From Hungateiclostridiaceae bacterium UBA1305 (GTDB lineage: Bacteria; Bacillota; Clostridia; Acetivibrionales; DTU013): a DNA stretch of 64,000 nucleotides. A model generated the notes under the pieces. That model was given only the letters and a program-made list of their open reading frames with translations, searched no databases and had not been told where the DNA came from. The stretch spans positions 42-64,041 of the forward strand of contig DBTX01000078.1 of the NCBI GenBank assembly GCA_002307275.1. The letters are read 5' to 3'. Shown in pieces: positions 12,595 to 46,148 of this stretch; the first letter of the stretch is position 1, and the number at the start of each line of letters is the position of its first letter. Position numbers and translations under genes: made by a program.

Positions 12595-12874
12595 GCGCCA
12601 CAATCGGGCAGCATGATTCAATTCGACAATCGCATAATAGACAAGTTATAATACAAAGCATTCCCTTTTTCGGTCACATTTCGTCATTATCCATATACTT
12701 CTTATCCTTTCAAATCCACAATTCATCCTTTTTTCATATTTCTCATTCTCCGCATGATCTATAATAAGTACAGCAAATTTTCTTATTATACACGCTGTTT
12801 ATCTATTTTTTGCATTTGCGTTCGCACCGGTGGAACATACAACTTATGACGAATTATGCAAAACAAAAATCAGT

Positions 12875-14692
12875 ATGAAAGGTATGATATATTTGAAAAA
12901 TTTAAACTACCAGCCTTTTGAGAGAAATAAATTTTTTTATGGCAAGCTTCTTACTGTTGCAGATTTTGAGCTGGAACAAAAGTACATGAATGACAAGAGA
13001 AGATTCCTCAGCAAATCCCTTTTTGGCAGCGGTGTAATATGCGGCCTGAATACATACGGCGTTGATGACAGCTCCGTTATGATAGAAGCAGGTGCGGCAA
13101 TTGACAGTACCGGCAGGGAAATTGTCGTAAATGAATCAGTCCTTCGCAAGCTGTCCGGCATAGACGGTTATGAGAACACGTCAGGCAGTGTTTTATATCT
13201 TTGCATAGAATACAATGAAGAATTACACGATCCGGTTTATTCTATTGCCCATACCCTGGGTGATACTGCTAAAAGCACCTCGGAATTTAACCGTGTAAAG
13301 GAATCCTTCCGCTTGTTTGTTACCGACAAGGAGCCGGACACGGAACCATACTCTTTAATAAATGAATTCATCTCGCGAAAAGTCATATTCTCCAACAGGG
13401 ATATCACTGTCACCCAGAGTGTCCCCCGTACCGTCTCAGCTTCAAGGCCCTTCAATATCACTGTAGACATTGAAAAGCATATAACCGCTTCAGATTTGTC
13501 CTTTGAATATATTATTGATACACCCTATTTTAACACAGCCGATGGTTCCGGTGTCATTCATGTCTGCTTTAATGATACGCCGGCAGAAATGAGTGACAAG
13601 CATACTCTTACCTATACTGTGATACCGCCGGGCAGTGTCAGGGCAGAGGCCGGCATGTCCATACTCCCGCAGAGTATTAAATTCACCTCTCAAAAAAGCA
13701 TATCTTCCGTGAAAGAGGCAATCAATTTTGAGATCAATGTCGTGCAGGCAGAGTTGCCCGAGATGATAGAAGGGAAATATTTCTCCATTTCGGCGGACGA
13801 AATTTCCGGCAGCAGATATCATTCGCCCATTTACCTCTCACGTATTGAAATCTTCCGTTCAAGCACCACCTATATCATTGAAGCTTTAAAATCAATGCCC
13901 TTTAATCAATATATCTATAATCCCCAGCTTTTGCGCCTGGATAATCAGCTAAGCGCCTTCTTCCCTCCGCTGGATAGAACCGGTCCATCCCAGGGTATAT
14001 CAGCTGATTCCGGAACACAAAAAAGCACCGCCGATTTTTCTCAGTCGAAAGAGCCTGGCAGTTCATCAGGTATCATCGAAATTCCCCTTGGCTTCAACCC
14101 ACACCCCAGGCAGAAATTCTATTCGGACGAAATCATGCACGGACTGGGGAAAGGAGTCGTCACTATTGTTCTGGGAATTGAAGCTGCTTCTGTCAACGAA
14201 AAGCTGTCCCGCGGCAATTTTACCGCTTATGGAAATCCGGATATTTTTAAGGGCTCGGATTATGACGCCCATCTCCCCGCTTATGAACTATGCGCCCTGA
14301 ATTATGAGGAACGAGGTACGTTTGTGGTTGGAGTGAAGCTCCTTGAAACAACAACCTCCCTTTATGTGAAGATCAAGTGGCATGCCTTTAAAACACCGGC
14401 GCCGGCAATGGGCATATCTGAATCACGTCAGGACATCTGCCTGTTTGTCAAACCGGATACAATTGTTATTGCTCCGCGGGAAACGGCATATTTTAAGGCA
14501 ATTTTCTGCAATACCGATGAAACGCCCTGCATTTGGAGTGTTGTAGAAGACAATGGCGGAACGGTAGAACCAAATGGCATATACACAGCCCCAAACAAAG
14601 AGGGGGTATATGAGGTGAATGTACAAAGCATTTCCAATCCTTCTCTGAAAGCATCGGCATTTGTCGTCGTTAAAGAGAAAGGAGCCAATTAA
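12875..14692 (+). CDS. Hypothetical cytoplasmic protein (~600 aa) with conserved N-terminal FERNKFFYGKLLTVADFELEQKY motif and C-terminal Ig-like domain; first gene of the CIS-linked plus-strand operon
   Basis: This is a long ORF with no signal peptide. The C-terminal WSVVEDNGGTVEPNGIYTAPNKEGVYEVNVQSISNPSLKASAFVVV looks like a bacterial Ig-like (Big) domain. The start is ambiguous (ATG 12875, ATG 12884 or TTG 12893). Its stop overlaps the next start (TAATG). Confidence 0.55.
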   Translation: MKGMIYLKNLNYQPFERNKFFYGKLLTVADFELEQKYMNDKRRFLSKSLFGSGVICGLNTYGVDDSSVMIEAGAAIDSTGREIVVNESVLRKLSGIDGYENTSGSVLYLCIEYNEELHDPVYSIAHTLGDTAKSTSEFNRVKESFRLFVTDKEPDTEPYSLINEFISRKVIFSNRDITVTQSVPRTVSASRPFNITVDIEKHITASDLSFEYIIDTPYFNTADGSGVIHVCFNDTPAEMSDKHTLTYTVIPPGSVRAEAGMSILPQSIKFTSQKSISSVKEAINFEINVVQAELPEMIEGKYFSISADEISGSRYHSPIYLSRIEIFRSSTTYIIEALKSMPFNQYIYNPQLLRLDNQLSAFFPPLDRTGPSQGISADSGTQKSTADFSQSKEPGSSSGIIEIPLGFNPHPRQKFYSDEIMHGLGKGVVTIVLGIEAASVNEKLSRGNFTAYGNPDIFKGSDYDAHLPAYELCALNYEERGTFVVGVKLLETTTSLYVKIKWHAFKTPAPAMGISESRQDICLFVKPDTIVIAPRETAYFKAIFCNTDETPCIWSVVEDNGGTVEPNGIYTAPNKEGVYEVNVQSISNPSLKASAFVVVKEKGAN

Positions 14693-15597
14693 TGATACAA
14701 ACTCCGGTTAAAAGCTATGAAGAAATCCGCACAGTTTTAAGTAATGAGACGAACGAAGTCCTTGTGTGCAGGAGCATGACAAGGGACGACTCAGGCTTTT
14801 ATACTGTAGTCAGGCTGAAGGACCGTGCTTTGCACACCCGGCTTTTAAAGGTGTTCTCCGGGAATTTTTCCGGTTTTTCCATGAATGATTTTTTCGAGCT
14901 GACCACCGTTGACTCCCAGCTTGCGCTGATATTTCCCTACAACAAGGAAAACAGGCTTTTCTATTATCAGCCGCTTTATTGCAGGCACTTTTCCGACAGG
15001 CTGAATATTGCTAAAAATCTTCTTGCAGAGCTTATATCAACTCCTCTTCCCGTAGAAATACTTTTTTTCCTGCTGGAGGAATACAACCTGAATCTGAGAC
15101 GGGACGGCCGGGTTTATTTCAACTTTTTTCTGGATTTCCAGCTTCTGCCGGACGAACTTGATATGCAGTACATTATTAATAAAGCCGCTGAAATTTTATT
15201 AAGGATTCTCACAAATAGTAAAAATAGCATTTCACATGAAGCAGAACTTTTCAGAGTGAAGGTTCAACGAAAATCCTTTGCAAGCTTTGGGGCTATTTAC
15301 GCGGATTTGAAAAGAATTTCTCCAGACGCGGAGATAAATACAAGCCTGCCGGATAAAATAAAGCGGACTTATTCCAACAAAAAAAAATACATTCTCTCAG
15401 CAGTTAAGACAGGTATTCTGGTCTTGCTTATAGGCGCATCCGTACTGTACAGCATCTCTGAATTGCGGAGCAGGTCGGCTGTATCCGCACTGAGTTCGTC
15501 TGAAGTAAAGCCTGCGTATAAGGGGCTGGAAAAAATCGGATCTGTGAATCTTCCGGAAGATACCGACAAACAGGAGATTATTGATGAAACGGATTAG
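14692..15597 (+). CDS. Hypothetical tail-anchored membrane protein; N-terminal domain with faint protein-kinase-like (pseudokinase) pattern
   Basis: 301 aa with a single TM segment, ILSAVKTGILVLLIGASVLYSI, near the C-terminus. The N-terminal 180 aa show kinase-like strand/helix spacing (YTVVRLKD...LALIFPY...NLNLRRDGRVYFNFFLDF) without HRD/DFG. The start overlaps the upstream stop, and its 3' end overlaps the next gene by 14 nt. Confidence 0.45.
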   Translation: MIQTPVKSYEEIRTVLSNETNEVLVCRSMTRDDSGFYTVVRLKDRALHTRLLKVFSGNFSGFSMNDFFELTTVDSQLALIFPYNKENRLFYYQPLYCRHFSDRLNIAKNLLAELISTPLPVEILFFLLEEYNLNLRRDGRVYFNFFLDFQLLPDELDMQYIINKAAEILLRILTNSKNSISHEAELFRVKVQRKSFASFGAIYADLKRISPDAEINTSLPDKIKRTYSNKKKYILSAVKTGILVLLIGASVLYSISELRSRSAVSALSSSEVKPAYKGLEKIGSVNLPEDTDKQEIIDETD

Positions 15598-18256
15598 GAT
15601 AATTTTAATTATTGTTATGCTGTTGCTAACTTTTACCGCATCCTATATCTATAATATATCCGCAGTTCCTGATATTTCAGAATCTTCCGGCAGTAGTGCC
15701 GTCGATTCAAGAGGCCTCTTCTATATGCTCGAAAACACCAGTACCAGGATTAACTTCATGCGCGTAAACAGCAGTAATGTTATTGATTGTTATTATTCTG
15801 CCCGCAGGAATACGGCTGATACGATGCTTCTTTTCGGAGATATCTTTGTGGATGAAGCTGCGAACCGCGTGTATTCGGTAAAGAATATACTGAATAACCG
15901 GTCCAACCGATTTATTTCAAGCAGTATTGTCTATTTCGATACCGCTTCAAACGAAGCCCACCCTGAAACGCTGCTGGAGCTTGGTCTGGAATCCCGGGAC
16001 CCCTCCGCCAACCAATATATACAGTATATTTATCCGTGCGGAGATTATCTTTATTTTACTTCGGTAGGTGAGGATATGAAGACGGTTGTTTTTTACCGTC
16101 TGGAGATCGGCAAAGCCTCAAAAGATATCCATGCCGATCCGGAGATTCTCTTGAAATACCAATTGTCCGAGAACTCAATTGTTAATACCGCTTTATGCGG
16201 AAAGGATTTTTTACTTGTACAGACGGCAGATTCTAAAATCTTCCATATAGATTCCCATGGCTCCTCAAGGCTCCTGTTTCCTTCAAAGGAATATTCGGGC
16301 CGCAGCTTTCCAATGAGCCTTCGCATTGATAATGAAAACAGGCTTCATTTCAATGAAATCTTCAGCAGTGATTCTATAGTTATGGACATTGATAGCGGCA
16401 GCATCCTTTCCTCCCTTAAATCAGATATGCCTGATGCGACAGGAGAATTGCGCAATCTCAAACTTTCTTCAAATGTTTTGCTTTTCAATACCGTGAAAAC
16501 GATGCTGTCAGCACTGGCCTTCCTGCTTCCGGTTTTAGGGCTGATACTGTTATTCCGTTTTGTATACCGCCGCAGACCGACTCTGCTGATGAAGCTGGTT
16601 ACCTTTGTGCTTCCAATTGTAATATTGGCTTTGCTCCTATTTTCAGAGGTTGCAATCCACATATTTGACAAGTCGATCACAGCAGAAAGGACAGGACTTG
16701 TTAAAAATGTAGGGAGCTTTGTCGCCCAGAATGTTGACACCGACCTGCTTTCCCAGATTAACAAGCCTCAGGATATGCTGCTTCCCGCATATGACAAATT
16801 ACTCCGCTCTATTTCAAGTGTGTCGGATTACAGTGAATTTCTTCCTGCCAGTACAGATTATTCAGGCTTGTACTGCGTACTCATGAAAGTGGAAAAAGGC
16901 CGGATATATACTGCCGTCTCTGCCGACATGCCTTGCTTTGTTCCGCTTGACAGCCTTTACTCCCAGCAGTCTATGAGCCTTTACCATACCGCTTTGGACA
17001 AAAAGAACCTGGTTACGGGTACAATTCAGGATATACAGGGTATATGGACCGTATCCATTTACCCGATATTTAATTCTGCCGGTGATATTTCAGGCATGCT
17101 CGAAACGGGAATCAATTCAAAGGATCTTGAGTCCTCCATACTCAGCCTTTCCCGTTTAATGCTCCTGTCAGGCGCCGCAGTCTCCCTTGCCGTTTTACTT
17201 GCTTTTTTCATCGCACTGAAGCTGCTGCTTCATCCCCTTGCATTGTTAAAAGAAGCTGTAGTATCCGTTTACAATGGCAATTATGGCGCATTGGCAAAAA
17301 TAAAGGCAAATGACGAGGTTGCCGATATCAGCCGCGTATTCAACAAACTGTCGTCCGAGCTAAGCATCCAGTTCGGCAAGCTCACAAATCTAAATCAGGC
17401 CTATAGCAAGCTTGTCCCTCCGGACACCTATTTACTGCTTAACAAAAATTCAATCCTTGATATCAAGCTTGGCGATCAGGTAAGCACTAAAATGACAATA
17501 ATGAATGCTTTCATCAGGAATTTCGAAAAAACCACTTCCGATTTATCTCCTGAGACTACTTTCAAATTTATCAACCGGATTTATAAAATAATCAGCAGTA
17601 ATTCCAGCAATTATTCCGGTATTGTGCAATCCTATAACGCAGACAGGCTGACAGTCCTGTTTCAAAACAATCCCGAAAATGCTCTTCAATCCGCCATTTG
17701 CATAAGATCCGAGCTTTCTGCAAAAAGCGGCTCAATATCCTCAAAAAGCTGGCAGGTGGTGGACGCAGGCTTCTACATACACACTACCTCCTGCATTTAT
17801 GGAATAGTCGGTGAAGAAAACAGGTATTCTTCTGCTGTAGTAGCAGAAAACAGTGATGTGATCTATTCCCTTGACAACTTGCAGCACCAGCTTATGTGCT
17901 CCATTCTTGTAACGCAAAATGCATATGACGGGCTTTCCGGGCCTGGCGAATACAATCATCGCTATATTGGCTACATGCTTGACAGTGATGGCCGGACACA
18001 AATCGGGTTATATGAGTTTTTTGACGGCGACGAGCCCAATGTGCTGATTGGCAAAAAACAGACTCTTGAAATATTTAAAACAGCAATTCTCGAATATTTG
18101 CAGCAAAATTTTTACAAAGCACGGAATTTGTTTGCCCAGGTTATCCGAATAAATCCGAAGGATACGGTAGCCAGATGGTTTCTGTTCAAATGCGATGTAC
18201 TCTGCAGGCAGTCGGATGAAGCAGTTCCCGAACTGGCTCTCACTAAATACCTATAA
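15584..18256 (+). CDS. Membrane sensor: N-terminal TM, ~300-aa extracytoplasmic beta-rich domain, TM pair, PDC/Cache-like domain, TM, HAMP, class III nucleotidyl-cyclase-like domain (apparently degenerate) and C-terminal TPR
   Basis: HAMP: LLHPLALLKEAVVSVYNGNYGALAKIKANDEVADISRVFNKLSSEL. Cyclase-like: MTIMNAFIRNFEKTT...YNADRLTVLF...GIVGEENRYSSAVVAENSDVIYSLDN. TPR-like tail: NFYKARNLFAQVIRINPKDTVARWFLFKC. CAGGAG RBS precedes the ATG at 15584. Confidence 0.6.
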   Translation: MKRIRIILIIVMLLLTFTASYIYNISAVPDISESSGSSAVDSRGLFYMLENTSTRINFMRVNSSNVIDCYYSARRNTADTMLLFGDIFVDEAANRVYSVKNILNNRSNRFISSSIVYFDTASNEAHPETLLELGLESRDPSANQYIQYIYPCGDYLYFTSVGEDMKTVVFYRLEIGKASKDIHADPEILLKYQLSENSIVNTALCGKDFLLVQTADSKIFHIDSHGSSRLLFPSKEYSGRSFPMSLRIDNENRLHFNEIFSSDSIVMDIDSGSILSSLKSDMPDATGELRNLKLSSNVLLFNTVKTMLSALAFLLPVLGLILLFRFVYRRRPTLLMKLVTFVLPIVILALLLFSEVAIHIFDKSITAERTGLVKNVGSFVAQNVDTDLLSQINKPQDMLLPAYDKLLRSISSVSDYSEFLPASTDYSGLYCVLMKVEKGRIYTAVSADMPCFVPLDSLYSQQSMSLYHTALDKKNLVTGTIQDIQGIWTVSIYPIFNSAGDISGMLETGINSKDLESSILSLSRLMLLSGAAVSLAVLLAFFIALKLLLHPLALLKEAVVSVYNGNYGALAKIKANDEVADISRVFNKLSSELSIQFGKLTNLNQAYSKLVPPDTYLLLNKNSILDIKLGDQVSTKMTIMNAFIRNFEKTTSDLSPETTFKFINRIYKIISSNSSNYSGIVQSYNADRLTVLFQNNPENALQSAICIRSELSAKSGSISSKSWQVVDAGFYIHTTSCIYGIVGEENRYSSAVVAENSDVIYSLDNLQHQLMCSILVTQNAYDGLSGPGEYNHRYIGYMLDSDGRTQIGLYEFFDGDEPNVLIGKKQTLEIFKTAILEYLQQNFYKARNLFAQVIRINPKDTVARWFLFKCDVLCRQSDEAVPELALTKYL

Positions 18257-18279
18257 AACGATGAAAGGCGCTGCGGCAT

Positions 18280-19779
18280 ATGAAGGAAAATCCATTTATA
18301 TATGTTGTTGAACGTGCAAAGCGAACTCTTTTTCTTCCGATCTATAAATATGTCTATACGCTGAAGCAAAAAACAAATCTAAAGCTGCTGTTGACCAAAG
18401 TGCTGCTAAGGATTTCTTCAGGCTTGAGAGGCTTGTTTGTGCTGCGTCCGCAAAAAGCCACCGATTATTTCTATGCCGGAAGGCTGGGAATATATAAAAA
18501 GCTGGTAATATTGCTGGTTTTGTTGATTTGTCTCGCTCCTGTGATTTATTTTCAGTTTTTTAGCACAACGGTTTCCAACCAATCAACAGAAGTGGCCAGG
18601 GTATATGAGTACGTTTACAACGACCCTGACCTGGAAGCCTTCAGCGGTACGACAAGAATCCTTTCAGCCGGCAAAAAACTTGTTTATGAGGGCGCCGTTG
18701 AAAAAGGCCTCTGTACCGGCAAGGGCAAGCTTTATGATTTCGATGGCTTACTGCTTTATTCGGGTGATTTTGTCAATAATGAATACAGCGGCAGCGGAGA
18801 GCTTTATGATACCCATGGCTCACTACTCTATTCGGGTGGTTTTGCGAATAATGAATACAACGGCAACGGCAAGCTTTATTATCCCTCAGGGAAAACCAGG
18901 TATGAAGGCATGTTTGAAGCAGGCCTTTATAATGGCGCCGGAGTTTTGTACAATGAAAGCGGCTCTGTTTTGTACACAGGCGCTTTCGTAGACAACGTCT
19001 TTTCAGGAGAAGGGACTCTTTATGATGCTGCCACCTCGCGCATGGTTTATAGCGGCAGTTTCGTGAACGGCCTGTATGAAGGCAAGGGAACACTTTATTC
19101 CTCTATAGGCAGAAGCAAATTCACCGGTCAGTTCCTTAAAGGCCTTCCCGATTATGTATACTTTCTTTCCCTTCCCACCTCAGAGCTGGGCAATTATTTT
19201 CCCGATTCGCCTGTCGTGGCATACTCCGGGAATACATCAGCAAGCCTGACTTATAGTGAGATGAAAATAGCCCTGTTAAGTAATGAAGCTGAAACGGAAG
19301 AACTGACGGAGTCTACGGTAAGCTCGGTAATGGTTTATGACAATACCATGCCGGCAGGACTTGCGGACTCAAAAGCATCTTCCGGTCTTGAGTCCCTGCT
19401 GGGCGTTCCGATATATGAAGGCTGCAGCTATCCTCTCAGCGAGGATCTGATTGCCCTTGAATCCCTCTCAAAGCAAGGTGTTCTTACAGAGGCGGATACA
19501 TTATATACCGAAACTTCAGAGGAGGATGCCTCAATTTCCACTGCAGCTGACGAGGATGCATCATTTTCCGAAACTGCTGATGAGGATGCCTCGATTTCCA
19601 CTGCTGCTGACGAGGATGCCTCAATTTCCGAAACTGCCGACGAGGATGTCTCGATTTCCACTGCTGCTGATGAAGATTTACAGCTGTATCTGGCATGTTA
19701 TGAATATCAGGGTTTTGCCTTGACCCTGTTTTTTGATAAAAAGGGAGGCAAATTCCTGTACTACAGGTGGGATATATGA
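18280..19779 (+). CDS. MORN-repeat membrane protein with acidic C-terminal decapeptide repeats
   Basis: TM segment LVILLVLLICLAPVIYFQFF. At least 6 MORN-like units of YxGxxxxGxxxGxGxL(Y) type are present (YEGAVEKGLCTGKGKLY, YSGDFVNNEYSGSGELY, YSGGFANNEYNGNGKLY, YEGMFEAGLYNGAGVLY, ...). A DEDASISTAA/DEDASFSETA array lies near the C-terminus. Confidence 0.7.
   Translation: MKENPFIYVVERAKRTLFLPIYKYVYTLKQKTNLKLLLTKVLLRISSGLRGLFVLRPQKATDYFYAGRLGIYKKLVILLVLLICLAPVIYFQFFSTTVSNQSTEVARVYEYVYNDPDLEAFSGTTRILSAGKKLVYEGAVEKGLCTGKGKLYDFDGLLLYSGDFVNNEYSGSGELYDTHGSLLYSGGFANNEYNGNGKLYYPSGKTRYEGMFEAGLYNGAGVLYNESGSVLYTGAFVDNVFSGEGTLYDAATSRMVYSGSFVNGLYEGKGTLYSSIGRSKFTGQFLKGLPDYVYFLSLPTSELGNYFPDSPVVAYSGNTSASLTYSEMKIALLSNEAETEELTESTVSSVMVYDNTMPAGLADSKASSGLESLLGVPIYEGCSYPLSEDLIALESLSKQGVLTEADTLYTETSEEDASISTAADEDASFSETADEDASISTAADEDASISETADEDVSISTAADEDLQLYLACYEYQGFALTLFFDKKGGKFLYYRWDI
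19522..19680 (+). repeat. In-frame 30-nt tandem repeat (5.3 copies, alternating two variants giving a 60-nt super-period) inside the MORN gene
   Basis: GAGGATGCC/GAGGATGCA recurs at 19522, 19552, 19582, 19612 and 19642, with a decayed copy at 19672. It encodes (D/E)EDAS(I/F)S(T/E)(A/T)A units. Confidence 0.9.
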
Positions 19780-21833
19780 TGAAACAAAGGTTTCTGCTAT
19801 TTTTGCTTGTGCTTGCGCTTGCGATTGTTCTTCCCGGCAATATATGCAAAGCCGCCGCATATCCTCAGGTGCTTACCCTGAACCAGGCTGTCAGCTCCTC
19901 GGTCAATACTAACTATGCCATACGAAAAACGAAAAGTGAAATCAAGCTGAAAAACATAGAGCTGAAACAGGCTATACAGGCAATAAAGGATATCCGGTGG
20001 AAAGAAAGCACCATACAGTTTTCTCTTCTTTTTGATATCAAATTTCCTACAGAGCACGCCCTTCCAAAAGAGCTGGAGCTTGTAATGAAGGTGCCTAAAA
20101 TACAGGCGGAGCTTGACGCTCTTAACAGGAAGCTGGAATACTCCAGGTATAATGCCGTCATGTCAGCTAAAACGGCTTATTTTAATGTTGTTGAGATTAT
20201 GGAAAACTGCACCTTGCAGGAAAGCCGCCTTGCCACGGCGAAAAGCACTTATCTTCGCCTCAGCAGTGATTATATCCTTGGGAAGGCAAGCAAAGATGAC
20301 GTTGAAGAAATAAAAAACAGCATTCCGACTCTGGAAAAGAATTACCAAAGCAATTTGCTTCGTTTTGAAAATAATAAAAAGAAGCTTTCAAAGATAATAA
20401 ACGTAGATGTGTCCAATGGCTACACCTTCAGTAAGGACTTTTCCAAACTCACACTGGAAAGAAAGCAATTAACTGAAATAACCGATTATGCTTTAAAAAA
20501 TGACTATAAGGTCTATCAGGCCGAATTGACCCGCAAAACCCTGGATACAGAGGTTACAACACTGCGCAATATATACAACAGCCGCTGGGGAGCCAAGGTA
20601 AGTGAAATTGAAAGTGAAATAGCCAAAAATGGCCCTATTGATTTTCTTACCTTTCAGGAAAAGTATGATGCCGCTCTGGAAAGCATTGAAGAACCTTATA
20701 CCGGCTATTATTCCATACGGATATTATTTATTACAATCAATATTCCAAAGGAATGGTTCCGCAGCGAATACAGCGGTATACGCTACTTTGAGGATCAGAA
20801 GTACGCACTTTACGTGTCGCTTATGGACAGAGCGGAAGCAGTGAAGGAAGAGGAAGAGGCCCGCAAGGATCTGACCGCTCAGGTAGAAGACAGTTTTAAC
20901 AGCCTGCTGGAGTTATGGAGCGCTTATGAAGATTCATTAAGCGGAATTGACAATGCAAAGCTCCGGTATAACCAGCTAAAAGAGCTGAATCTTACAGGAA
21001 ACGCTTCGTTTATGGATGTGGAAAGCGCCAAAAACGATATCCTGTCTTTTGAAAACGCAATGCTGTCTTCCCTGATCGCTTATAACAAAGCTCTGGCAAG
21101 CTTTGATTTCACCACGTCAGGCGCGGTAACAAAGCTGTTGTCGGGAGTTTCACTGGCTCCCGCCGGTAAATATGATTCAGGCCTTTCCTGGCTTTCATCC
21201 GATGCGGATGCCGAAAAGCCCATGTGGTATATGAATACCCTGATAAACGAGTACAAATTTGTTTTTGGTATTTCCATACCGGAAGACAGCGAAATTGCAG
21301 CAACCCATTATGAACTGTGTACCGAGGACGGCAGCCTTATTGGAGCACGTACCGCCATAAGCAGTGTGATCACCCATTTGCCTCTCGTATACGAGGGCAC
21401 AACAAAGCTCATTGTCAAGCTGTATAAGGAAAGTACACTGACATATACCGCTGAAATTGATGCTGCCAATTATACCGGCACTCTTGACCTCAAGCCTGTC
21501 AGTCCTGGTACCGTGACAGCTTCAAATGATCTTCCGGCTTCAGGCACGCTGATGGGCAATTGGATTTTGGTAAAAAACAATGACAACTACACTTCCCAGC
21601 TTACATTGGATTTTGATAAAAAATGGAATGTAGGTTTTTATGAGTTGACAACAGCCTCCGGGGACAAAATCGGCAATGCAAGATTTCCCGCCGCTACGCC
21701 GGTTTCCCATTTATCCATCACCTTTTCCTCAATGGAAAATCTGACGCTCAAGCTGTTCGACACAGACGGCAATTCGCTGGGAGATGCATTGATTTTAAAT
21801 GATATGAATGTGCAAGTCATAAAAATGAAATGA
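19776..21833 (+). CDS. Secreted TolC/outer-membrane-efflux-protein-like protein with two C-terminal beta-sandwich-like repeats
   Basis: Signal peptide MMKQRFLLFLLVLALAIVLPGNICKAAA. LTLNQAVSSSVNTNYAIRKTKSEIKLKNIELKQA plus long heptad-rich helices with YxLGKASKDDV resemble OEP/TolC repeats. The C-terminal internal duplication is ATHYELCTEDGSLIGAR... versus VGFYELTTASGDKIGNAR.... The ATG at 19776 overlaps the upstream TGA (ATGA), and AGGTGGG RBS is present. Confidence 0.5.
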   Translation: MMKQRFLLFLLVLALAIVLPGNICKAAAYPQVLTLNQAVSSSVNTNYAIRKTKSEIKLKNIELKQAIQAIKDIRWKESTIQFSLLFDIKFPTEHALPKELELVMKVPKIQAELDALNRKLEYSRYNAVMSAKTAYFNVVEIMENCTLQESRLATAKSTYLRLSSDYILGKASKDDVEEIKNSIPTLEKNYQSNLLRFENNKKKLSKIINVDVSNGYTFSKDFSKLTLERKQLTEITDYALKNDYKVYQAELTRKTLDTEVTTLRNIYNSRWGAKVSEIESEIAKNGPIDFLTFQEKYDAALESIEEPYTGYYSIRILFITINIPKEWFRSEYSGIRYFEDQKYALYVSLMDRAEAVKEEEEARKDLTAQVEDSFNSLLELWSAYEDSLSGIDNAKLRYNQLKELNLTGNASFMDVESAKNDILSFENAMLSSLIAYNKALASFDFTTSGAVTKLLSGVSLAPAGKYDSGLSWLSSDADAEKPMWYMNTLINEYKFVFGISIPEDSEIAATHYELCTEDGSLIGARTAISSVITHLPLVYEGTTKLIVKLYKESTLTYTAEIDAANYTGTLDLKPVSPGTVTASNDLPASGTLMGNWILVKNNDNYTSQLTLDFDKKWNVGFYELTTASGDKIGNARFPAATPVSHLSITFSSMENLTLKLFDTDGNSLGDALILNDMNVQVIKMK

Positions 21834-21843
21834 GGTAACAGCA

Positions 21844-24462
21844 ATGAAAAATACATACCTGAAAAAATTCCTGACCTTTATTCTTATATTGAGCATGGCC
21901 ACCAGCCTGTTTTTATTTGCGCCCGCTGTTTCATACGGCGCACAGCTGCGACCGGGCGCGGCGGATATTCCCTCAGGTACTCTTATCATCGGCACGCATC
22001 TTATTCACATCAAGGCTCTTAACTCCGAGCTTCTGGCAGTTGCCACAGCCAGTGCGACCAGCAGCCTGCAGGCAAAAACATATTACAAGTCCGAATTTTC
22101 CAACGGGACATGGTACGATATCTCCGGCGCCTCCGGCTTTTCAGATATAACCAGTGAGGGCAAGCCGGTTGCAAACACGGTAATCGATGCTTTGATACTG
22201 ACACACTGGACCAGGGAAGACGGTAAAACAATAGACCTCGCCACCGGCATGATTGTCGATATCCACAAAATAAATGACCCTTCGGATTTTTCAACTCTTC
22301 CTGAACTTGCGGAGCTCAAAACCCGAAGGAATATGCTTATTGAAACGATAAAAAATGAAAATACCGGGGAAAACAATCAGAAGCTGCAATCCATAGAACG
22401 CATTATTATAACTCCCTTCAGCTCGGAGGAAAGCAAAGCCGTTATAGACAAAATGGATGCTCTTGAAAAATATATAAATTATCTCAAGGAAAAAAAGACG
22501 CGCGATGATTGGGTAAATGCAGTTGTGGACCTGAAAGGCAGCATGAATACTGGAAAAACACTGCTGTGTTATAAAGAAGTCCTTTCAAGGCTGAATACAG
22601 AAATCAGCTTTGTTGAAACAAAAATTGTTGACGCCGATAACAAGACGAAACCCGCAGCAGATCTTTCCGCTGCCTATTATACCTGTCTTGACGCCGTCAA
22701 CAAAAAGATTGTGGAGCTGGAAGGCAGCCAGTCCGGCTCCCAGGGCACGGGAGCGTTAAATAAGGCAAAGGCGGGATATGAAGAGGCAGTGATCGCCTCA
22801 GCTATCGCGGCAAGTTACGACAAGGCTGATTCAAGCCTTGAAAAATGCATGTCGGTAAAAAATATCCTTGGCGGCCTGAAGCTGGATATTCCTCTTGAGC
22901 TTTCAATACTCAAGCCTCTGCTGTCTGATCTGACCAAAGAGCTGTGTGCCGCATGTACCGGCGGCATTTCTTCAGAATACACCCAGGCGAAAAAAACCGG
23001 AGAGTCGGCCATTATACTGGATTCTCTGAAAAAAAAGCATGTGTCCGGTCTTTCATCCCAGGTTTCCGACATCGAATCCATCATCGGTTATATAAAGGAT
23101 CGGGAATCGGACGCCCTTCAATTGGAAACCGTCCTTTCTCCAGTTCTCAAAAGCTGCCTTGACGCACTTTCAAAGGTGCCCGTGGATGATGCCCGGGATG
23201 ATACTGTTGATGTCCTCAAGCAGCTTATCGACTGGTTGAACGCAGAGCTTGCCCTTCTTCAGCAGCAGCAAATGGATACAACACTCTCCGACAGCCTCTC
23301 TTCTTTGGAAAGCCAGATTTCGGAGCTTACCCAGGATTATCTTTCCGCGCTTGACGAGCGCAACCTCAGCGGAGCTCAGTCCATAAAAGCCGAAATAGAC
23401 GAACTCGCTGCCAAAAAGGCCGACATTTACGAAAATGCGGCTGCAGAACAAAGCAAGCTGTTTGAACAAAAAGCAGCGCTGGAAGCAAAACTGGAAGATG
23501 CCTTGAATAAAGGAGACAGTGCCGCTGCCAGCGACCTGCTTAACCAGCTTTCCACCATAAACGCGGCGCTTGATATTCAGGACTCCGCCACAGATGGGCT
23601 TACCGCTGTCAACAATGCCGCTGTAAGCGACTTGTTTACTGAATTGGAGGAATATCTCAGTCAAAGTGATTTTACCTCCGCCCTCTCCAAAATGCAGGAA
23701 ATATCCGATATGCTCAATGCTTCGAAGCCCATTCCAGCCAATTCTCTTTCTTTATTAAATAAAATACTGCCTAAGGTACAAAGCAAACTGGAGGATGCGG
23801 AAACAAAGGGAAAAACAACGGATGCCGGCAAGCTGACAAAAATCGAAACGCTTTTCAATTCACTTTTGGGGATAGTATCCAATGAGGATTCACAAATTGA
23901 AGCTGACACGGATGCTTTACAGGATGCATTGCTGGAAAAGCTGGACAGCCTTATTTTACAATCAGGCATTGATTCCGATACTGCCGACGGCCAGCTTTTA
24001 AAAGCCCTGCTTCTTGACAAGCTGGGAGAAACCCCTGAGTTTTCGGCGCTTGGAGATTTTATCAAAACGCTGCAGGAGGATGCTTTGGCACAGCTGAAGG
24101 CTCTAGGCAGTGATTATACCGTAGATGATTACAAAATACTTAATGGACAAGGTTATGCAAACCTCAAAGAACTGGCCGCTATTTCGGGCCGACGTTATGT
24201 ATGGCAGCAGAGCAGCGGCACTGCTTCTGTTACAAGCGGCCGGTCTGCTATCATTTTTTCAAAAAACAGTTCCAGTGTCACGATTGACAAAAAGCTTACA
24301 AGTATGCCCTTAAGTACTCATTTCTCCAGCAGCAAGCTCTACGTTCCGCTTTCCTTTACAGCTGACGCCTTGAATTCTTCATGGATTCGGGCCGGGTTGA
24401 GCGGAAAGCCGCTGATCTATCCGAAGAAATTGGACAAGGTGGCCGCCGGGTTGATGAAATAA
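21844..24462 (+). CDS. Secreted 872-aa coiled-coil-rich protein with C-terminal Cu-amine-oxidase-N-terminal-like (stalk) domain
   Basis: Signal peptide MKNTYLKKFLTFILILSMATSLFLFAPAVSYGA. A long Ala/Leu/Glu/Ser-rich helical region follows. The C-terminal SVTSGRSAIIFSKNSSSVTIDKKLTSMPLSTHFSSSKLYVPLSFTADALNSSW resembles the clostridial copper amine oxidase N-terminal-like domain. GAGGTAA RBS is present. Confidence 0.45.
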   Translation: MKNTYLKKFLTFILILSMATSLFLFAPAVSYGAQLRPGAADIPSGTLIIGTHLIHIKALNSELLAVATASATSSLQAKTYYKSEFSNGTWYDISGASGFSDITSEGKPVANTVIDALILTHWTREDGKTIDLATGMIVDIHKINDPSDFSTLPELAELKTRRNMLIETIKNENTGENNQKLQSIERIIITPFSSEESKAVIDKMDALEKYINYLKEKKTRDDWVNAVVDLKGSMNTGKTLLCYKEVLSRLNTEISFVETKIVDADNKTKPAADLSAAYYTCLDAVNKKIVELEGSQSGSQGTGALNKAKAGYEEAVIASAIAASYDKADSSLEKCMSVKNILGGLKLDIPLELSILKPLLSDLTKELCAACTGGISSEYTQAKKTGESAIILDSLKKKHVSGLSSQVSDIESIIGYIKDRESDALQLETVLSPVLKSCLDALSKVPVDDARDDTVDVLKQLIDWLNAELALLQQQQMDTTLSDSLSSLESQISELTQDYLSALDERNLSGAQSIKAEIDELAAKKADIYENAAAEQSKLFEQKAALEAKLEDALNKGDSAAASDLLNQLSTINAALDIQDSATDGLTAVNNAAVSDLFTELEEYLSQSDFTSALSKMQEISDMLNASKPIPANSLSLLNKILPKVQSKLEDAETKGKTTDAGKLTKIETLFNSLLGIVSNEDSQIEADTDALQDALLEKLDSLILQSGIDSDTADGQLLKALLLDKLGETPEFSALGDFIKTLQEDALAQLKALGSDYTVDDYKILNGQGYANLKELAAISGRRYVWQQSSGTASVTSGRSAIIFSKNSSSVTIDKKLTSMPLSTHFSSSKLYVPLSFTADALNSSWIRAGLSGKPLIYPKKLDKVAAGLMK

Positions 24463-24493: not shown

Positions 24494-25096
24494 ATGGCTG
24501 ATTATTCAATAATTGCAGATTTCGGCAATGAAATCGTCAAGCTGATGCGAGACAATTTGTGCCCGGAATTGGTTCAAAATCCGGAATCTATACTTTTGTG
24601 CCCTCCCTTTGAAAAGGGAGAGTACCTTCTTGGCATCCACCTGTACGATATTCAAACCGACGGATATTATCCCCAGAATGAAATGGTAAATATCGGTGAA
24701 AAGCAACAGCGGTTTCCTCCCATGCCTGTAACCCTTTTTTATATGTTTACCGTAAACACAACTACGAATATCGCGTCAAAATCCATTGTCGAACAGCGTA
24801 TTTTATGCAGGGTAATGCAGGTGCTGCATGATAATTCTGTATTTGAGATTTCCGACATACAGCCCGGCGCAGAAACCTCTGATGAAGCTATCTCCCTGTC
24901 GCCTCACTTCCTGACCTATGAGGACAAGAGCAGGATATGGAGCAATTCAGGTTCCGGAAGCACCTCCAAGCTTGCTCTTTATTATAAGGCCGCTCCAATC
25001 CTTATCGATTCTACCCGGATTTCGCAGCCTGAACGTGTTACAAGCATAAAAGTGAAGCTTGATGGAAAGGAGCCGCGTCATGGTATCTCAGACTAA
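24494..25096 (+). CDS. DUF4255 (Pvc16/Afp16 N-terminal domain) protein: CIS tail terminator/cap
   Basis: ADFGNEIVKLMRDNL...LLGIHLYDIQ...PVTLFYMFTV...EQRILCRVMQVLHDNSVF...LSPHFLTYEDKSRIWS...LALYYKAAPILIDS follows the DUF4255 pattern as I know it. It starts only 31 nt after the preceding gene. Confidence 0.75.
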   Translation: MADYSIIADFGNEIVKLMRDNLCPELVQNPESILLCPPFEKGEYLLGIHLYDIQTDGYYPQNEMVNIGEKQQRFPPMPVTLFYMFTVNTTTNIASKSIVEQRILCRVMQVLHDNSVFEISDIQPGAETSDEAISLSPHFLTYEDKSRIWSNSGSGSTSKLALYYKAAPILIDSTRISQPERVTSIKVKLDGKEPRHGISD

Positions 25097-25910: not shown

Positions 25911-26297
25911 ATGGGAATTTGTGTTTGCGGCGGCGCTAATATGAAATGCACTTTCGGAGCCGCTCCGTCTACGTTTATAGTATTGCCCGAAAAAAAAGTC
26001 ATGACGACCCAGCCTATCGCAACAATCATGGATAACAAGCCCATGTCCAATATCCCGCCGTTCGGCATGTGCAGCAGTATGGCAAATCCAGCTGTGGCGT
26101 CTGCAACCGCGGCAGCCTGGGGCGTTCTTACACCGCAGCCATGTACGCCCACGATACCTGCGCCGTGGGTTCCCGGCTCACCAACAGTCCTCATTGGCAA
26201 TATGCCTGCGCTGAATGCTTCCTCAAAGCTGATGTGTGCCTATGGCGGTGTAATAGATTTTGCGACTCCCGGACAGGCTGCCATCCAGGTACCATAG
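25911..26297 (+). CDS. DUF4280 (PAAR-like) protein: candidate spike-tip sharpening protein
   Basis: GANMKCTFGAAPSTFIVLP...ATIMDNKPMSNIPPFGMCSSMANP...PQPCTPTIPAPWVPGSPTVLIGNMPALNASSKLMCAYGGVIDFATPGQ matches the DUF4280 Cys/Gly pattern. GGAGG RBS is present. Confidence 0.8.
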   Translation: MGICVCGGANMKCTFGAAPSTFIVLPEKKVMTTQPIATIMDNKPMSNIPPFGMCSSMANPAVASATAAAWGVLTPQPCTPTIPAPWVPGSPTVLIGNMPALNASSKLMCAYGGVIDFATPGQAAIQVP

Positions 26298-26855: not shown

Positions 26856-26856
26856 A

Positions 26857-38748: not shown

Positions 38749-38763
38749 CGCTATTCACCCCTA

Positions 38764-39174: not shown

Positions 39175-39213
39175 GATAAAAGCCCTCCTCCCTGCGCCAA
39201 CGCTGCTGCAGTT

Positions 39214-41114: not shown

Positions 41115-41136
41115 TAAGTATCTCCCATCCCCTGCA

Positions 41137-41823: not shown

Positions 41824-41835
41824 AACATATACCTC

Positions 41836-44964: not shown

Positions 44965-44975
44965 TTTTTACACCT

Positions 44976-45425: not shown

Positions 45426-45489
45426 TAATAAGCACTCTCCCTTTGCTTTTTATTCCGGTGATAATGCCGGCAAAGCATAAAAGCTTTTG

Positions 45490-46037: not shown

Positions 46038-46051
46038 AAACAAGCCCCCGA

Positions 46052-46115: not shown

Positions 46116-46148
46116 GACAAAACTGTAAAGCTGTGGCGGGTTGAGTTG

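What the first reader, a model, noticed from the sequence alone, without database searches (positions are those of the whole stretch)
12875..24462. Six-gene module of envelope/sensor proteins co-transcribed with the CIS cap and spike-tip genes: candidate undescribed CIS accessory system
Seen: nine plus-strand genes from 12875 to 26297 are packed with overlaps or gaps of at most 31 nt. These include a TAATG overlap at 14692, a 14-nt overlap at 15584, a 23-nt gap before 18280, an ATGA overlap at 19776, a 10-nt gap at 21844, a 31-nt gap at 24494, a 17-nt overlap at 25080 and a 27-nt gap at 25911. I see no terminator-like hairpin between them, and a 280-nt AT-rich leader precedes the first gene. 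The last three genes are the DUF4255 cap, an unknown and the DUF4280 tip, i.e. bona fide CIS parts.

The first six genes encode:
- a cytoplasmic Ig-domain protein;
- a tail-anchored pseudokinase-like protein;
- a propeller/PDC/HAMP/cyclase-like/TPR sensor;
- a MORN-repeat membrane protein;
- a signal-peptide TolC-like protein;
- a signal-peptide coiled-coil protein with a wall-associated-type stalk domain.

Inference: the operon structure ties these to the CIS. Together they span cytoplasm, membrane and wall. They could be a docking/anchoring or exit apparatus, or a signal-controlled firing switch for a fibre-less CIS in a thick-walled cell. None corresponds to a named Afp/Pvc component as far as I can tell.
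Basis: partly seen in the sequence, partly recalled or inferred. Interest (0 to 1): 0.8.

Follow-up and report, generated by a model that had tools for sequence, protein, structure and literature searches.

The report
Membrane and wall proteins of clostridial injection system
Six genes packed in front of the cap and spike-tip genes of a phage-tail-like injection machine are true companions of that machine in Clostridia: one is its baseplate fibre, and the rest are undescribed membrane, sensor and wall proteins that probably dock the machine to the cell envelope and control its firing.

Summary

The link to the contractile injection system (CIS) is strongly supported. The same nine-gene order recurs in four other lineages (45-77% identity) with different flanking genes. 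In about 60 further Clostridia species, G1, a G2-type, a MORN G4-type and a G3-type protein lie inside the CIS operon, in the order Tail_P2_I-G1-G2-G4-cap-G8-DUF4280-G3-AAA.

- G1 is not unnamed. It is a Cis13/eBAP3-type (TssK-like) baseplate fibre, so the system is not fibre-less.
- The module is composite. G1, G2, G3 and G4 are lineage-wide. G5 (TolC fold, shown by structure prediction and fold search) and G6 (coiled coil plus Cu_amine_oxidN1) occur in only three small clades, always after the MORN gene.
- G3's cyclase domain is catalytically degenerate, and G2's "pseudokinase" fold is only weakly supported.

Best model, inferred rather than shown: the fibre docks the baseplate to membrane proteins G2, G3 and G4, with G3 as a sensor. 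G5 and G6 extend the assembly into the wall.

I found no paper describing G2-G6. I rate this a new variant of a known kind, with interest 0.68.

The parts
12623..12652 (+). Promoter-like site (TCGACA-18-TATAAT) in the ~280-nt leader of the nine-gene block. It lies after the hairpin 12575-12612 that ends the upstream GH4 gene.
   Evidence: consensus match only; not evidence of function
12875..14692 (+). G1: cytoplasmic Cis13/eBAP3-type baseplate fibre (TssK-like class). It has an N-terminal baseplate-anchor domain (aa 14-157) and a C-terminal Big_2-like Ig domain. No transmembrane segment or signal peptide. The start may be ATG 12884.
   Evidence: NCBIfam CIS13_fam E 1.6e-25. Weak N-terminal hit to the Anabaena Cis19/All3314 N-terminus, E 0.09, and a Big_2-like C-terminus, E 0.03. 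Follows Tail_P2_I in about 45 related loci. Conserved over its full length.
14692..15597 (+). G2: tail-anchored membrane protein. It has a ~230-aa cytoplasmic domain of unknown fold (weakly kinase-like), a transmembrane segment at aa 234-252, and a ~45-aa outside tail with a conserved GxxKIGTV motif.
   Evidence: A same-sized ORF with a single transmembrane segment at aa 231-279 (one at 334) follows G1 in all 59 loci where a downstream ORF was found. The family has 246 clusters. Kinase hits are only E 0.02 or weaker. No Pfam hit.
15584..18256 (+). G3: four-transmembrane receptor. It has a first ectodomain of ~280 aa (fold not tested), a Cache-like second ectodomain, and cytoplasmic HAMP, degenerate class III cyclase-homology and TPR-like domains.
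18280..19779 (+). G4: type II membrane protein. [quoted passage not shown]
   Evidence: Pfam MORN E 2.4e-18. A MORN protein with a transmembrane segment at ~aa 80 follows the G2 type across the lineage.
19776..21833 (+). G5: secreted TolC/outer-membrane-factor-fold protein (aa ~30-460) with very short beta-barrel segments, followed by two Ig/FN3-like sandwich domains (aa ~495-685).
   Evidence: Pfam OEP E 4.5e-10. AlphaFold2 model pLDDT 72. Foldseek gave 44 PDB hits, all TolC family, best E 6.6e-11. Signal peptide.
21844..24462 (+). G6: secreted protein with a conserved N-terminal domain, ~600 aa of helix-rich or coiled-coil sequence and a C-terminal Cu_amine_oxidN1 domain.
   Evidence: HlyD_2 is below its cut-off (16.7 vs 25.1 bits).
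24494..25096 (+). G7: CIS cap / tail terminator (Pvc16_N, Cis16).
25080..25883 (+). G8: conserved protein of unknown role between the cap and tip genes. Its N-terminal region resembles a CarboxypepD_reg/EMC7-like beta-sandwich.
   Evidence: E 0.0017
25911..26297 (+). G9: DUF4280 PAAR-like spike tip (same family as the T6SS protein IglG).
26322..48384 (-). Convergent main CIS operon. It encodes sheath, tubes, a large unknown protein at the tape-measure position, tube initiator, gpD-like protein, VgrG-like spike, gp25, two Baseplate_J proteins, Tail_P2_I, an unknown protein, an AAA ATPase and three further unknown proteins.
49421..53016 (-). A 1005-aa protein whose N-terminal ectodomains are paralogous to G3 and whose C-terminus is an MFS transporter, together with a GNAT acetyltransferase. 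The pair is conserved beside CIS genes in other lineages.

Best explanation
The nine-gene block is the detached, distal part of a clostridial-type CIS operon. In most relatives these genes follow the baseplate genes directly.

**G1** is the baseplate fibre. Its N-terminal anchor domain binds the Tail_P2_I (TssG-like) wedge. The rest of G1, including the C-terminal Ig domain, is conserved rather than hypervariable. I infer that it binds a conserved partner of the producing cell, not a variable target receptor.

**The likely partners** are encoded next to it, all with cytoplasmic portions:
- G2, tail-anchored, with a ~230-aa cytoplasmic domain.
- G4, with a basic cytoplasmic N-terminus and MORN repeats outside.
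- G3, a four-transmembrane receptor with two ectodomains and cytoplasmic HAMP, degenerate cyclase and TPR-like domains.

I propose that together they form a membrane platform. It docks the cytoplasmic CIS perpendicular to the membrane, as the TssK-to-membrane-complex link does in a T6SS. G3 would couple an outside signal (contact or envelope damage) to assembly or firing through a non-enzymatic conformational output.

**In three small clades**, including this window, two secreted proteins were added after the MORN gene: G5 (a TolC-fold helical barrel plus Ig domains) and G6 (a long coiled coil plus a Cu_amine_oxidN1 domain). They probably extend the platform through the thick wall, as an anchor, a spacer or a site of local wall passage.

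**Shown:** gene linkage, domain identities and predicted topologies.
**Inferred:** every physical contact, the docking, the sensing and the wall role.
For: **Linkage**
- The nine-gene order is identical in L001 (Anaerobacterium chartisolvens), L005, L003/L004 and L007/L008, although the flanks differ: rpsB-tsf and DUF4135; LytTR-GNAT-MFS-sheath; GH1 sugar genes.
- All nine proteins are conserved at comparable levels (34-78% identity).
- Tight junctions are kept in the orthologues.
- G3 has only 6 clusters among 5.8 billion proteins and G5 only 9. Every context read is a CIS context.

**Lineage-wide set**
- 69 genome loci carry G1.
- About 45 of them show CIS_tube-gpD-VgrG-gp25-BaseplateJ x2-Tail_P2_I-G1 in one line.
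- This is followed by a G2 type, a MORN G4 type, cap, G8, DUF4280 and a G3 type.

**G1 identity**
- CIS13_fam E 1.6e-25.
- It occupies the fibre slot.
- PMC12923769 describes eBAP3 fibres of Bacillota that follow Tail_P2_I and resemble TssK, with Tail_P2_I resembling TssG.
- Mean pairwise identity is 69% at the N-terminus and 43-50% in the C-terminal third, against 25% in the middle.

**Topologies:**

**G3**
- HAMP plus Guanylate_cyc above the Pfam threshold in relatives.
- Catalytic residues are degenerate in all 17 G3-type sequences aligned.
- Some loci instead carry a HAMP-SpoIIE phosphatase plus a soluble cyclase-like protein, which points to signalling.

**G5:** TolC fold.

**Precedents**
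- Streptomyces CisA is a bitopic membrane protein required for firing.
- No holin or endolysin domain was detected in the 12.6-59.1 kb island.
Against: - No physical interaction was tested. The only structure model of G2 was unusable (pLDDT 42).
- PMC12923769 reads eBAP3 fibres as target-binding fibres of released particles. A conserved fibre could equally bind a conserved target glycan.
- Membrane proteins in an operon can serve regulation, release or self-protection without touching the particle.
- A TolC-type trimer has a lumen far narrower than a CIS tube (established knowledge of TolC and CIS dimensions). G5 therefore cannot be a simple duct for the tube.
- G5 and G6 are absent from most loci of the lineage, so they are dispensable for the basic mechanism.
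- The outside location of the MORN repeats rests only on the positive-inside rule.
- Co-transcription is inferred from spacing and synteny only. A. chartisolvens has a ~240-nt gap between G3 and G4.
Confidence: 0.5

Rival explanations
1. This is a released (extracellular) CIS. G1 is an ordinary target-binding tail fibre. G2-G6 never touch the particle and instead handle regulation of expression, particle release through the wall, or protection of the producer.
For: - eBAP3 fibres are interpreted as receptor-binding fibres, and one Paenibacillus fibre redirected PVC particles to human cells (PMC12923769).
- The locus has the eCIS hallmarks: a large protein at the tape-measure position, an AAA ATPase and a Pvc16_N cap.
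- G1 ends in a Big_2-like Ig domain, a common adhesion fold.
- G3 types look like signalling receptors.
Against: - G1 shows no hypervariable receptor-binding end.
- The membrane genes sit between structural genes (fibre, then cap and tip) across about 60 species. Regulators are usually peripheral, as the LytTR and LuxR regulators are here.
- G3's output domain is degenerate and has no DNA-binding or enzymatic part.
- No lysis genes were detected in the island.
Confidence: 0.25
2. G5, G6 and the MFS-fusion protein form a tripartite, efflux-like export conduit (MFS pump, coiled-coil adaptor, TolC-like exit). It exports a small molecule or peptide linked to CIS function, such as a signal or an immunity factor, and is not a structural anchor.
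For: - G5 has the TolC fold.
- G6 is a long coiled coil with sub-threshold HlyD_2 hits in two orthologues.
- A ~1000-aa MFS protein with a GNAT or LPG_synthase_C partner is conserved next to CIS genes. In L079 and L085 it lies just upstream of G3-G4-G5-G6.
Against: - The hosts belong to Oscillospiraceae and related Clostridia, which by taxonomy should lack an outer membrane (inference).
- G5's beta-barrel segments are too short for a membrane-spanning barrel.
- HlyD_2 never reaches its cut-off.
- The MFS fusion also occurs in loci without G5 and G6.
- G5 and G6 always follow the MORN gene, not the MFS gene.
Confidence: 0.12
3. Adjacency is a coincidence. The six genes are an independent envelope or sensor operon that merely happens to lie next to the cap and tip genes.
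For: - In the window the block is separate from, and convergent with, the main CIS operon.
- In A. chartisolvens it lies next to rpsB-tsf, with no main CIS genes within 10 kb.
Against: - The cap, G8 and tip genes always travel with the six genes.
- G1, G2, G4 and G3 types are embedded in colinear CIS operons in about 45 loci.
- Distant G5 homologues (33-43% identity) are still found with MORN, G6, cap and tip genes.
Confidence: 0.03

Closest known systems
T6SS baseplate-to-membrane link (TssK-TssG docking onto TssJLM) and its threonine-phosphorylation control pathway (PpkA, PppA, TagQRST)
   Same: - A fibre-like protein following a TssG-like Tail_P2_I protein (G1; the eBAP3 class is described as TssK-like in PMC12923769).
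- Adjacent membrane proteins with cytoplasmic domains.
- A bitopic protein with a weakly kinase-like cytoplasmic domain (G2).
- PP2C phosphatase variants in sister loci, and envelope receptors.
- A DUF4280 tip of the IglG family.
   Different: - No sequence homology to TssJ, TssL, TssM, PpkA or Fha was detected by Pfam or NCBIfam.
- The host is monoderm.
- The system keeps eCIS parts that a T6SS lacks, namely the Pvc16_N cap and a large protein at the tape-measure position.
- G2 lacks kinase catalytic motifs.
Streptomyces CisA (SCO4242), the membrane adaptor required for firing of the cytoplasmic CIS (PMC12237407)
   Same: - A Gram-positive host.
- A bitopic N-in/C-out membrane protein encoded just after the baseplate genes, where fibres usually lie. 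G2 has the same topology and nearly the same position.
- A proposed transient docking of the baseplate to the membrane.
   Different: - CisA has a disordered cytoplasmic part and a folded outside domain of substrate-binding-protein type. G2 has a folded cytoplasmic domain and only a ~45-aa outside tail.
- The Streptomyces locus has no fibre. Here a fibre (G1) precedes G2, and three to five more envelope proteins follow.
- Homology between G2 and CisA was not tested, because no CisA sequence was available.
Haloarchaeal T6SS-like CIS with putative anchor Hbor_38620 (PMC11566945)
   Same: - According to that paper its closest bacterial relatives are Bacillota CIS.
- It has two Cis11 (Baseplate_J) genes, as in this window.
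- It has a Cis13 and a conserved membrane protein that correlates with membrane-bound, contact-dependent action across a monoderm-type envelope.
   Different: - Its anchor is a single six-transmembrane protein with a ~150-aa cytoplasmic domain, encoded upstream of the cluster.
- It has no MORN, HAMP-cyclase, TolC-fold or Cu_amine_oxidN1 proteins.
Anabaena thylakoid-anchored CIS (Cis13, Cis12, Cis19; PMC8894136)
   Same: - A fibre-like protein whose N-terminus binds the baseplate and whose other end mediates membrane anchoring.
- The G1 N-terminus weakly resembles the Cis19 N-terminus (E 0.09).
   Different: - There the fibre itself carries the transmembrane helix. Here G1 has none and separate membrane proteins follow it.
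- The membrane in question is the thylakoid, not the cytoplasmic membrane.
TolC / outer membrane factor family of tripartite efflux and type I secretion
   Same: - G5 has the fold (Foldseek E 6.6e-11, target-normalised TM-score ~0.6; Pfam OEP above its cut-off).
- It has a signal peptide.
   Different: - The host lineage lacks an outer membrane (by taxonomy).
- The beta-barrel segments are about 17 and 25 aa, against roughly 30 aa per repeat in TolC.
- It has two extra C-terminal Ig-like domains.
- It is always encoded in a CIS context after a MORN protein, not with an RND or ABC pump.

Membership tests
CIS tail fibre of the Cis13 / eBAP3 class (G1) | N-terminal baseplate-anchor domain recognisable by sequence | tested here: met
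   NCBIfam CIS13_fam E 1.6e-25 over aa 14-157 and model positions 3-142. The whole-protein score of 90 bits is below the equivalog cut-off of 370, because only the N-terminal domain matches. The eBAP3 model itself was not available to test.
CIS tail fibre of the Cis13 / eBAP3 class (G1) | Gene lies immediately downstream of the baseplate wedge gene Tail_P2_I | tested here: met
   True in about 45 related loci. In the window itself the block has been moved away from Tail_P2_I (32421-33572, minus strand).
CIS tail fibre of the Cis13 / eBAP3 class (G1) | Trimeric shoulder fold bound to the baseplate | not testable with these tools
Outer membrane factor (TolC) family (G5) | Two OEP repeats forming long helical hairpins (alpha-barrel fold) | tested here: met
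   Pfam OEP 40.1 bits against a cut-off of 22. The model has 70-aa helices with pLDDT 85-94. Foldseek gave 44 TolC-family hits.
Outer membrane factor (TolC) family (G5) | Membrane-spanning 12-stranded beta-barrel inserted in an outer membrane | tested here: inconclusive
   The segments at the barrel positions are short (aa 80-96 and 309-333) and partly low-confidence. They are nevertheless the most conserved parts of the family. The host lineage is monoderm by taxonomy (inference).
Class III nucleotidyl cyclase (G3 C-terminal domain) | Cyclase-homology fold | tested here: met
   Profile against PDB 2w01, E 1.2e-7. Pfam Guanylate_cyc is above its cut-off in L079, L020 and L017.
Class III nucleotidyl cyclase (G3 C-terminal domain) | Two metal-binding Asp residues plus the catalytic Asn and Arg | tested here: not met
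   In the window protein the first Asp is Phe, Asn is Asp and Arg is Ser. The same positions are degenerate in all 17 lineage members aligned. It should not be filed as an active cyclase.
Hanks-type protein kinase / pseudokinase (G2) | Kinase fold detectable by sequence or structure | tested here: inconclusive
   A 40-sequence profile hits AKT1, PAK1, NEK1, CDKL5 and SGK1 over the hinge-to-catalytic-loop region, but only at E 0.02-0.7. No Pfam kinase hit in any member. The AlphaFold2 model has pLDDT 42.
Hanks-type protein kinase / pseudokinase (G2) | Catalytic HRD Asp, DFG motif and the beta3 Lys-alphaC Glu pair | tested here: not met
   In the best alignments the HRD Asp and DFG are not conserved. 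If the fold is kinase-like, the protein is inactive.
HlyD / membrane fusion protein (G6) | Match to an MFP family model above threshold | tested here: not met
   HlyD_2 scores 16.7-17.5 bits against a cut-off of 25.1, within coiled-coil sequence.
T6SS membrane complex (TssJ, TssL, TssM) | Sequence homology of any of G2-G6 to TssJ, TssL or TssM | tested here: not met
   No such Pfam or NCBIfam hit for G2-G6 at E 0.01 or better. Any resemblance is functional only.
Streptomyces CisA family | Sequence homology to SCO4242 | not tested
Only the topology was compared, from the paper.

The most novel reading that the evidence does not exclude
G1-G4, with G5 and G6 in some clades, build a true trans-envelope docking and trigger complex. 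This would make the widespread clostridial CIS a contact-dependent, T6SS-like weapon of monoderm gut and rumen bacteria, including Lachnospiraceae, Oscillospiraceae, Ruminococcus, Roseburia and Flavonifractor. G3 would act as the outside sensor that licenses firing, and the TolC-fold and coiled-coil pair would form a dedicated structure across the thick wall.
Probability: 0.25. Interest if true: 0.9.

Novelty: new variant of a known kind. Interest (0 to 1): 0.68.

Why it matters
How a contractile injection system works in a thick-walled, single-membrane bacterium is an open question. Only the Streptomyces system has been studied; it is cytoplasmic, causes cell death and needs CisA.

This lineage is present in many gut and rumen Clostridia. 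It carries a fixed set of membrane and sensor proteins wedged between its structural genes.

If these proteins dock and trigger the machine, they give:
- a genetic handle on its mode of action (anchored versus released);
- a candidate signal-to-firing pathway;
- in the G5/G6 clades, an unusual use of the TolC fold in a bacterium without an outer membrane.

Culturable carriers exist (Anaerobacterium chartisolvens, Flavonifractor sp. An92, Angelakisella massiliensis), so the model can be tested.

Tried and rejected
- **G2 structure prediction.** Only 4 admissible sequences were allowed, giving pLDDT 42, which is unusable.
- **Kinase identity of G2.** The profile gave only borderline PDB hits. 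A Pfam scan of 40 members gave nothing. I left this as inconclusive.
- **G1 profile against PDB.** No significant hit, and TssK was not detected by sequence. The TssK likeness rests on the published paper alone.
- **G6 as an HlyD-type adaptor.** It scored below threshold, so I did not adopt it.
- **PHROGs scan.** G1, G2, G8 and the unknown proteins of the main operon had no hits. Only G4's MORN region hit a family of unknown function.
- **Rfam scan of 12000-27000.** No credible RNA element in the leader or the junctions.
- **Internal terminator at 19708-19728.** Rejected as not conserved.
- **Literature searches** for MORN, HAMP, cyclase or TolC in CIS loci, or for a clostridial CIS studied in situ, found nothing relevant. 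One search was too broad to be useful.
- **G5 as a duct for the CIS tube.** Considered and rejected on dimensions.

Full report
**1. What is in the window**

The plus strand from 12875 to 26297 carries nine genes, which I call G1 to G9.

Pfam and NCBIfam give the following:

| Gene | Coordinates | Hit |
|---|---|---|
| G1 | 12875-14692 | aa 14-157 match NCBIfam CIS13_fam, E 1.6e-25 |
| G2 | 14692-15597 | none |
| G3 | 15584-18256 | HAMP, weak sCache |
| G4 | 18280-19779 | MORN, E 2.4e-18 |
| G5 | 19776-21833 | OEP/TolC, E 4.5e-10 |
| G6 | 21844-24462 | Cu_amine_oxidN1, E 2e-6; HlyD_2 below threshold |
| G7 | 24494-25096 | Pvc16_N (cap) |
| G8 | 25080-25883 | none |
| G9 | 25911-26297 | DUF4280; also NCBIfam IglG-type PAAR-like |

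The minus strand from 26322 to 48384 is the main CIS operon. It encodes sheath, two tube proteins, an assembly protein, a 1042-aa protein at the tape-measure position, a CIS_tube initiator, a gpD-like protein, a VgrG-like spike, gp25, two Baseplate_J proteins, Tail_P2_I, an AAA ATPase and four unknown proteins.

Regulators and an MFS/GNAT pair follow, up to about 59.1 kb. The whole island is bracketed by hexuronate genes.

**2. Operon signals**

A stem-loop (12575-12612) ends the upstream GH4 gene. The best promoter-like match of the region (11 of 12 positions) lies at 12623-12652.

Seven of the eight internal starts have Shine-Dalgarno-like motifs.

One terminator-like hairpin lies inside the end of G4 (19708-19728). 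It is weak, it encodes a conserved peptide, and it is not conserved across the orthologues.

Rfam finds nothing credible.

Co-transcription is therefore plausible but not demonstrated.

**3. The link to the CIS is real**

G3 has only six clusters among 5.8 billion proteins. I read four of the five other clusters in context (P0002, P0003, P0004 and P0006). Each lies in the same G1-to-G9 order. This includes the cultured Anaerobacterium chartisolvens.

The flanks of the block differ between lineages:
- rpsB-tsf on one side and a DUF4135 gene on the other (L001, L005);
- a divergent LytTR-GNAT-MFS-sheath-tube unit (L003/L004);
- GH1 sugar genes (L007/L008);
- in the window, a convergent main CIS operon.

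The block therefore moves as one unit, and the cap, G8 and tip genes always stay behind the six genes.

All nine proteins are conserved at similar levels, 34-78% identity. Junction spacing stays tight in the orthologues, apart from a ~240-nt G3-G4 gap in A. chartisolvens.

**4. A much wider family**

A scan of species-representative genomes with the G1 alignment returned 69 loci in Clostridia. They include Lachnospiraceae, Oscillospiraceae, Ruminococcus, Ruminiclostridium, Roseburia, Flavonifractor, Intestinimonas, Angelakisella, Pelotomaculum and Syntrophomonadaceae. G1 is matched over its full length at 27-38% identity.

Profile and BLAST mapping of their ORFs shows one colinear operon in about 45 loci:

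CIS_tube - gpD - VgrG - gp25 - Baseplate_J x2 - Tail_P2_I - G1 - G2 type - MORN G4 type - cap - G8 - DUF4280 - G3 type - AAA

All 59 loci in which a downstream ORF was found carry a 263-387 aa ORF directly after G1. It has a single transmembrane segment at about residue 231-279, with one outlier at 334.

The MORN protein always has one transmembrane segment near residue 80.

The G3 type comes in three forms:
- usually an 880-1120 aa protein with the same four-transmembrane pattern;
- a shorter HAMP-cyclase form;
- in Ruminococcus-type loci, a soluble cyclase-like protein plus a HAMP-SpoIIE (PP2C) membrane protein.

An exhaustive search finds 246 G2-family clusters, nearly all 270-305 aa.

**5. 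G5 and G6 are a restricted addition**

Among the 69 genome loci, G5 and G6 occur only in the four loci of the window's own clade.

More distant G5 homologues (33-43% identity) define two further clades. Both are again in a CIS context:
- L079, L084 and L085: MFS fusion - ... - G3 - MORN - G5 - G6 - cap - G8 - DUF4280;
- L081: TPR protein - G2 type - MORN - G5 - G6, divergent from cap - G8 - sheath - tube.

The MORN-G5-G6 triad is thus kept through three different arrangements.

**6. What the proteins are**

*G1.* It has no transmembrane segment or signal peptide. Its N-terminus is a CIS13-family anchor. It weakly resembles the N-terminus of Anabaena Cis19/All3314 (E 0.09; identity of All3314). 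A recent catalogue calls that Cis19 N-terminus eBAP4.

The same catalogue defines eBAP3 as a ~200-aa anchor. It is common in Bacillota, is encoded after Tail_P2_I, and is structurally TssK-like, with Tail_P2_I being TssG-like (PMC12923769). G1 fits this description by position and by family hit.

G1's C-terminus looks like a Big_2 Ig domain (E 0.03).

Conservation along G1 is 69% at aa 1-80, 25% in the middle, and 43-50% in the last third. It has no hypervariable tip.

*G2.* It is tail-anchored, N-in by the positive-inside rule.
- A 40-sequence profile repeatedly hits Ser/Thr kinases over the hinge-to-catalytic-loop region.
- These hits are only at E 0.02-0.7 and lack the catalytic motifs.
- Pfam finds nothing in any member.
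- The structure model failed.

I treat the fold as unknown, possibly kinase-like.

*G3.* Its layout, in order, is:
- an N-terminal transmembrane segment;
- a ~280-aa ectodomain;
- two transmembrane segments;
- a Cache-like ectodomain;
- a fourth transmembrane segment;
- HAMP;
- a class III cyclase-homology domain (E 1.2e-7 to 2w01);
- a TPR-like end (TPR_2 is weak, and only in L079).

The first metal-binding Asp, the catalytic Asn and the Arg are replaced in all 17 G3-type sequences aligned, with one relative (L079) keeping the Asn. This is a degenerate, probably non-catalytic output domain.

*G5.* With a nine-sequence alignment the model reaches pLDDT 72, with 85-94 in the long helices. Foldseek returns 44 PDB hits at E 1e-3 or better, and all are TolC-family channels.

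The two segments at the beta-barrel positions are only about 17 and 25 residues. They are nevertheless the most conserved parts of the protein. Two Ig/FN3-like sandwiches follow.

*G6.* It has a signal peptide, a conserved N-terminal domain, about 600 helix-rich residues, and a Cu_amine_oxidN1 domain in every orthologue.

*G8.* It has a CarboxypepD_reg/EMC7-like sandwich (E 0.0017).

**7. How it most likely works**

In a T6SS, TssK links the TssG wedge to the membrane complex.

Here a TssK-class fibre with a conserved distal end is followed, across about 60 species, by membrane proteins that expose sizeable cytoplasmic parts. All of them are wedged between structural genes.

The haloarchaeal CIS is reported to be closest to Bacillota systems and also has two Cis11 genes. 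It is membrane-bound and contact-dependent, with a conserved putative anchor. Streptomyces needs the bitopic protein CisA for firing.

My best explanation is that G1 docks the baseplate to a G2/G3/G4 platform. G3 acts as an outside sensor whose HAMP and degenerate cyclase transmit a conformational signal.

The PP2C variants in sister loci recall the PpkA/PppA control of T6SS assembly. That comparison rests on established knowledge and is an analogy only.

G5 and G6 would extend the platform into the wall in some clades. The TolC lumen is too narrow for a CIS tube, so I propose an anchor, spacer or local wall-passage role rather than a duct.

Linkage, domains and topology are shown. All contacts and the signalling are inferred. 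Confidence is about 0.5.

**8. Rivals**

- **A released eCIS** with G1 as a target-binding fibre and G2-G6 in regulation, release or protection (0.25). The catalogue's reading of eBAP3 fibres supports it. The embedded position of the membrane genes, the conserved fibre tip and the lack of detected lysis genes argue against it.
- **An efflux-like MFS-G6-G5 conduit** (0.12). It is attractive because a ~1000-aa MFS protein is conserved near these loci. Its N-terminal ectodomains are paralogous to G3 (E 9e-15 and 1.7e-18). However, the host should lack an outer membrane. G6 never reaches the HlyD threshold. The MFS fusion also occurs in loci without G5 and G6.
- **Chance adjacency** (0.03) is contradicted by the synteny data.

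**9. Comparison with what is known, and novelty**

G1 belongs to a described fibre class. GerE/LuxR regulators near eCIS loci are also known.

For G2, G3, G4, G5 and G6 I found no description in the searchable literature as CIS components.

Membrane adaptors and anchors of CIS are a known kind: TssJLM, CisA, Hbor_38620 and the Cis13 transmembrane helix. None of G2-G6 shows homology to the T6SS membrane parts (TssJ, TssL, TssM) that the family scans cover; the other three anchors could not be compared by sequence. I therefore rate this a new variant of a known kind.

The CIS link and the envelope-spanning, possibly signal-controlled role stand. 'No named component', 'fibre-less' and 'one six-gene module' do not.

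Noticed in passing
window 49421-53016 (minus strand); also L003 2640-6149, L079 278-4167, L085 1204-4200: A 1005-aa protein has an N-terminal half with the same transmembrane pattern and both ectodomains as G3 (E 9e-15 by BLASTP; E 1.7e-18 against the G3 profile). Its C-terminal half is an MFS transporter. A GNAT or LPG_synthase_C gene always sits beside it, and the pair is conserved next to CIS genes in several lineages.
   Followed up: partly
window ~12600-59100, flanked by 8163-12594 and 59399-60859: The whole CIS island, including its regulators, sits between hexuronate and sugar-acid genes (UxaE and GH4 on one side, UxaC on the other). This looks like an insertion into a sugar-utilisation cluster.
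   Followed up: no
window 48692-49432 (+), 53181-56966 (-), 57151-59087 (-): The island carries three regulatory units: a LytTR response regulator facing the sheath promoter region, a 1261-aa STAND-GAF-LuxR/GerE protein, and an AgrC-like GHKL kinase with a second LytTR regulator. A LytTR regulator is also linked to the CIS in L003 and L017.
   Followed up: no
window 19494-19677: G4 contains an acidic tandem repeat (60-nt unit, 3.1 copies; peptide DEDASIS(T/E)AA) that is absent from all four orthologues.
   Followed up: partly
window ~16440 (G3, after aa ~288): The window's G3 lacks about 44 residues that all five orthologues carry at the end of the first ectodomain (alignment A2, columns 289-332).
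   Followed up: no
L044 12603-15192; similar in L036, L053 and other Ruminococcus/Ruminiclostridium loci: In these loci the G3-type fusion is replaced by a soluble degenerate cyclase-like protein plus a membrane HAMP-SpoIIE (PP2C phosphatase) protein, at the same position after the DUF4280 gene.
   Followed up: partly
L058 10013-14056 (Pelotomaculum terephthalicicum) and L060: Here G1 lacks the C-terminal Ig domain and no G2-type gene follows. In L058 the next gene encodes an 813-aa protein with four transmembrane segments and an eCIS_core (DUF4157) domain. This hints, from two related loci only, that the G1 Ig domain and G2 go together.
   Followed up: no
window 26322-27462 (minus strand): The last two genes of the main CIS operon encode paralogous ~200-aa proteins (28% identity) with no family hit. 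A related protein occurs in L058.
   Followed up: no
L001 and L005 (A. chartisolvens and MAG OH_PBB_98): In these genomes the nine-gene block lies beside rpsB-tsf and a DUF4135 (LanM-like) gene, with no other CIS core gene within 10 kb. I did not check whether and where the main CIS operon exists in them.
   Followed up: no
L086-L089 (metagenome contigs JDSF01, LQAJ01, LQAG01): Several G3, G4, G5 and G6 homologues are split into two or three ORFs. These could be assembly errors or decaying copies.
   Followed up: no
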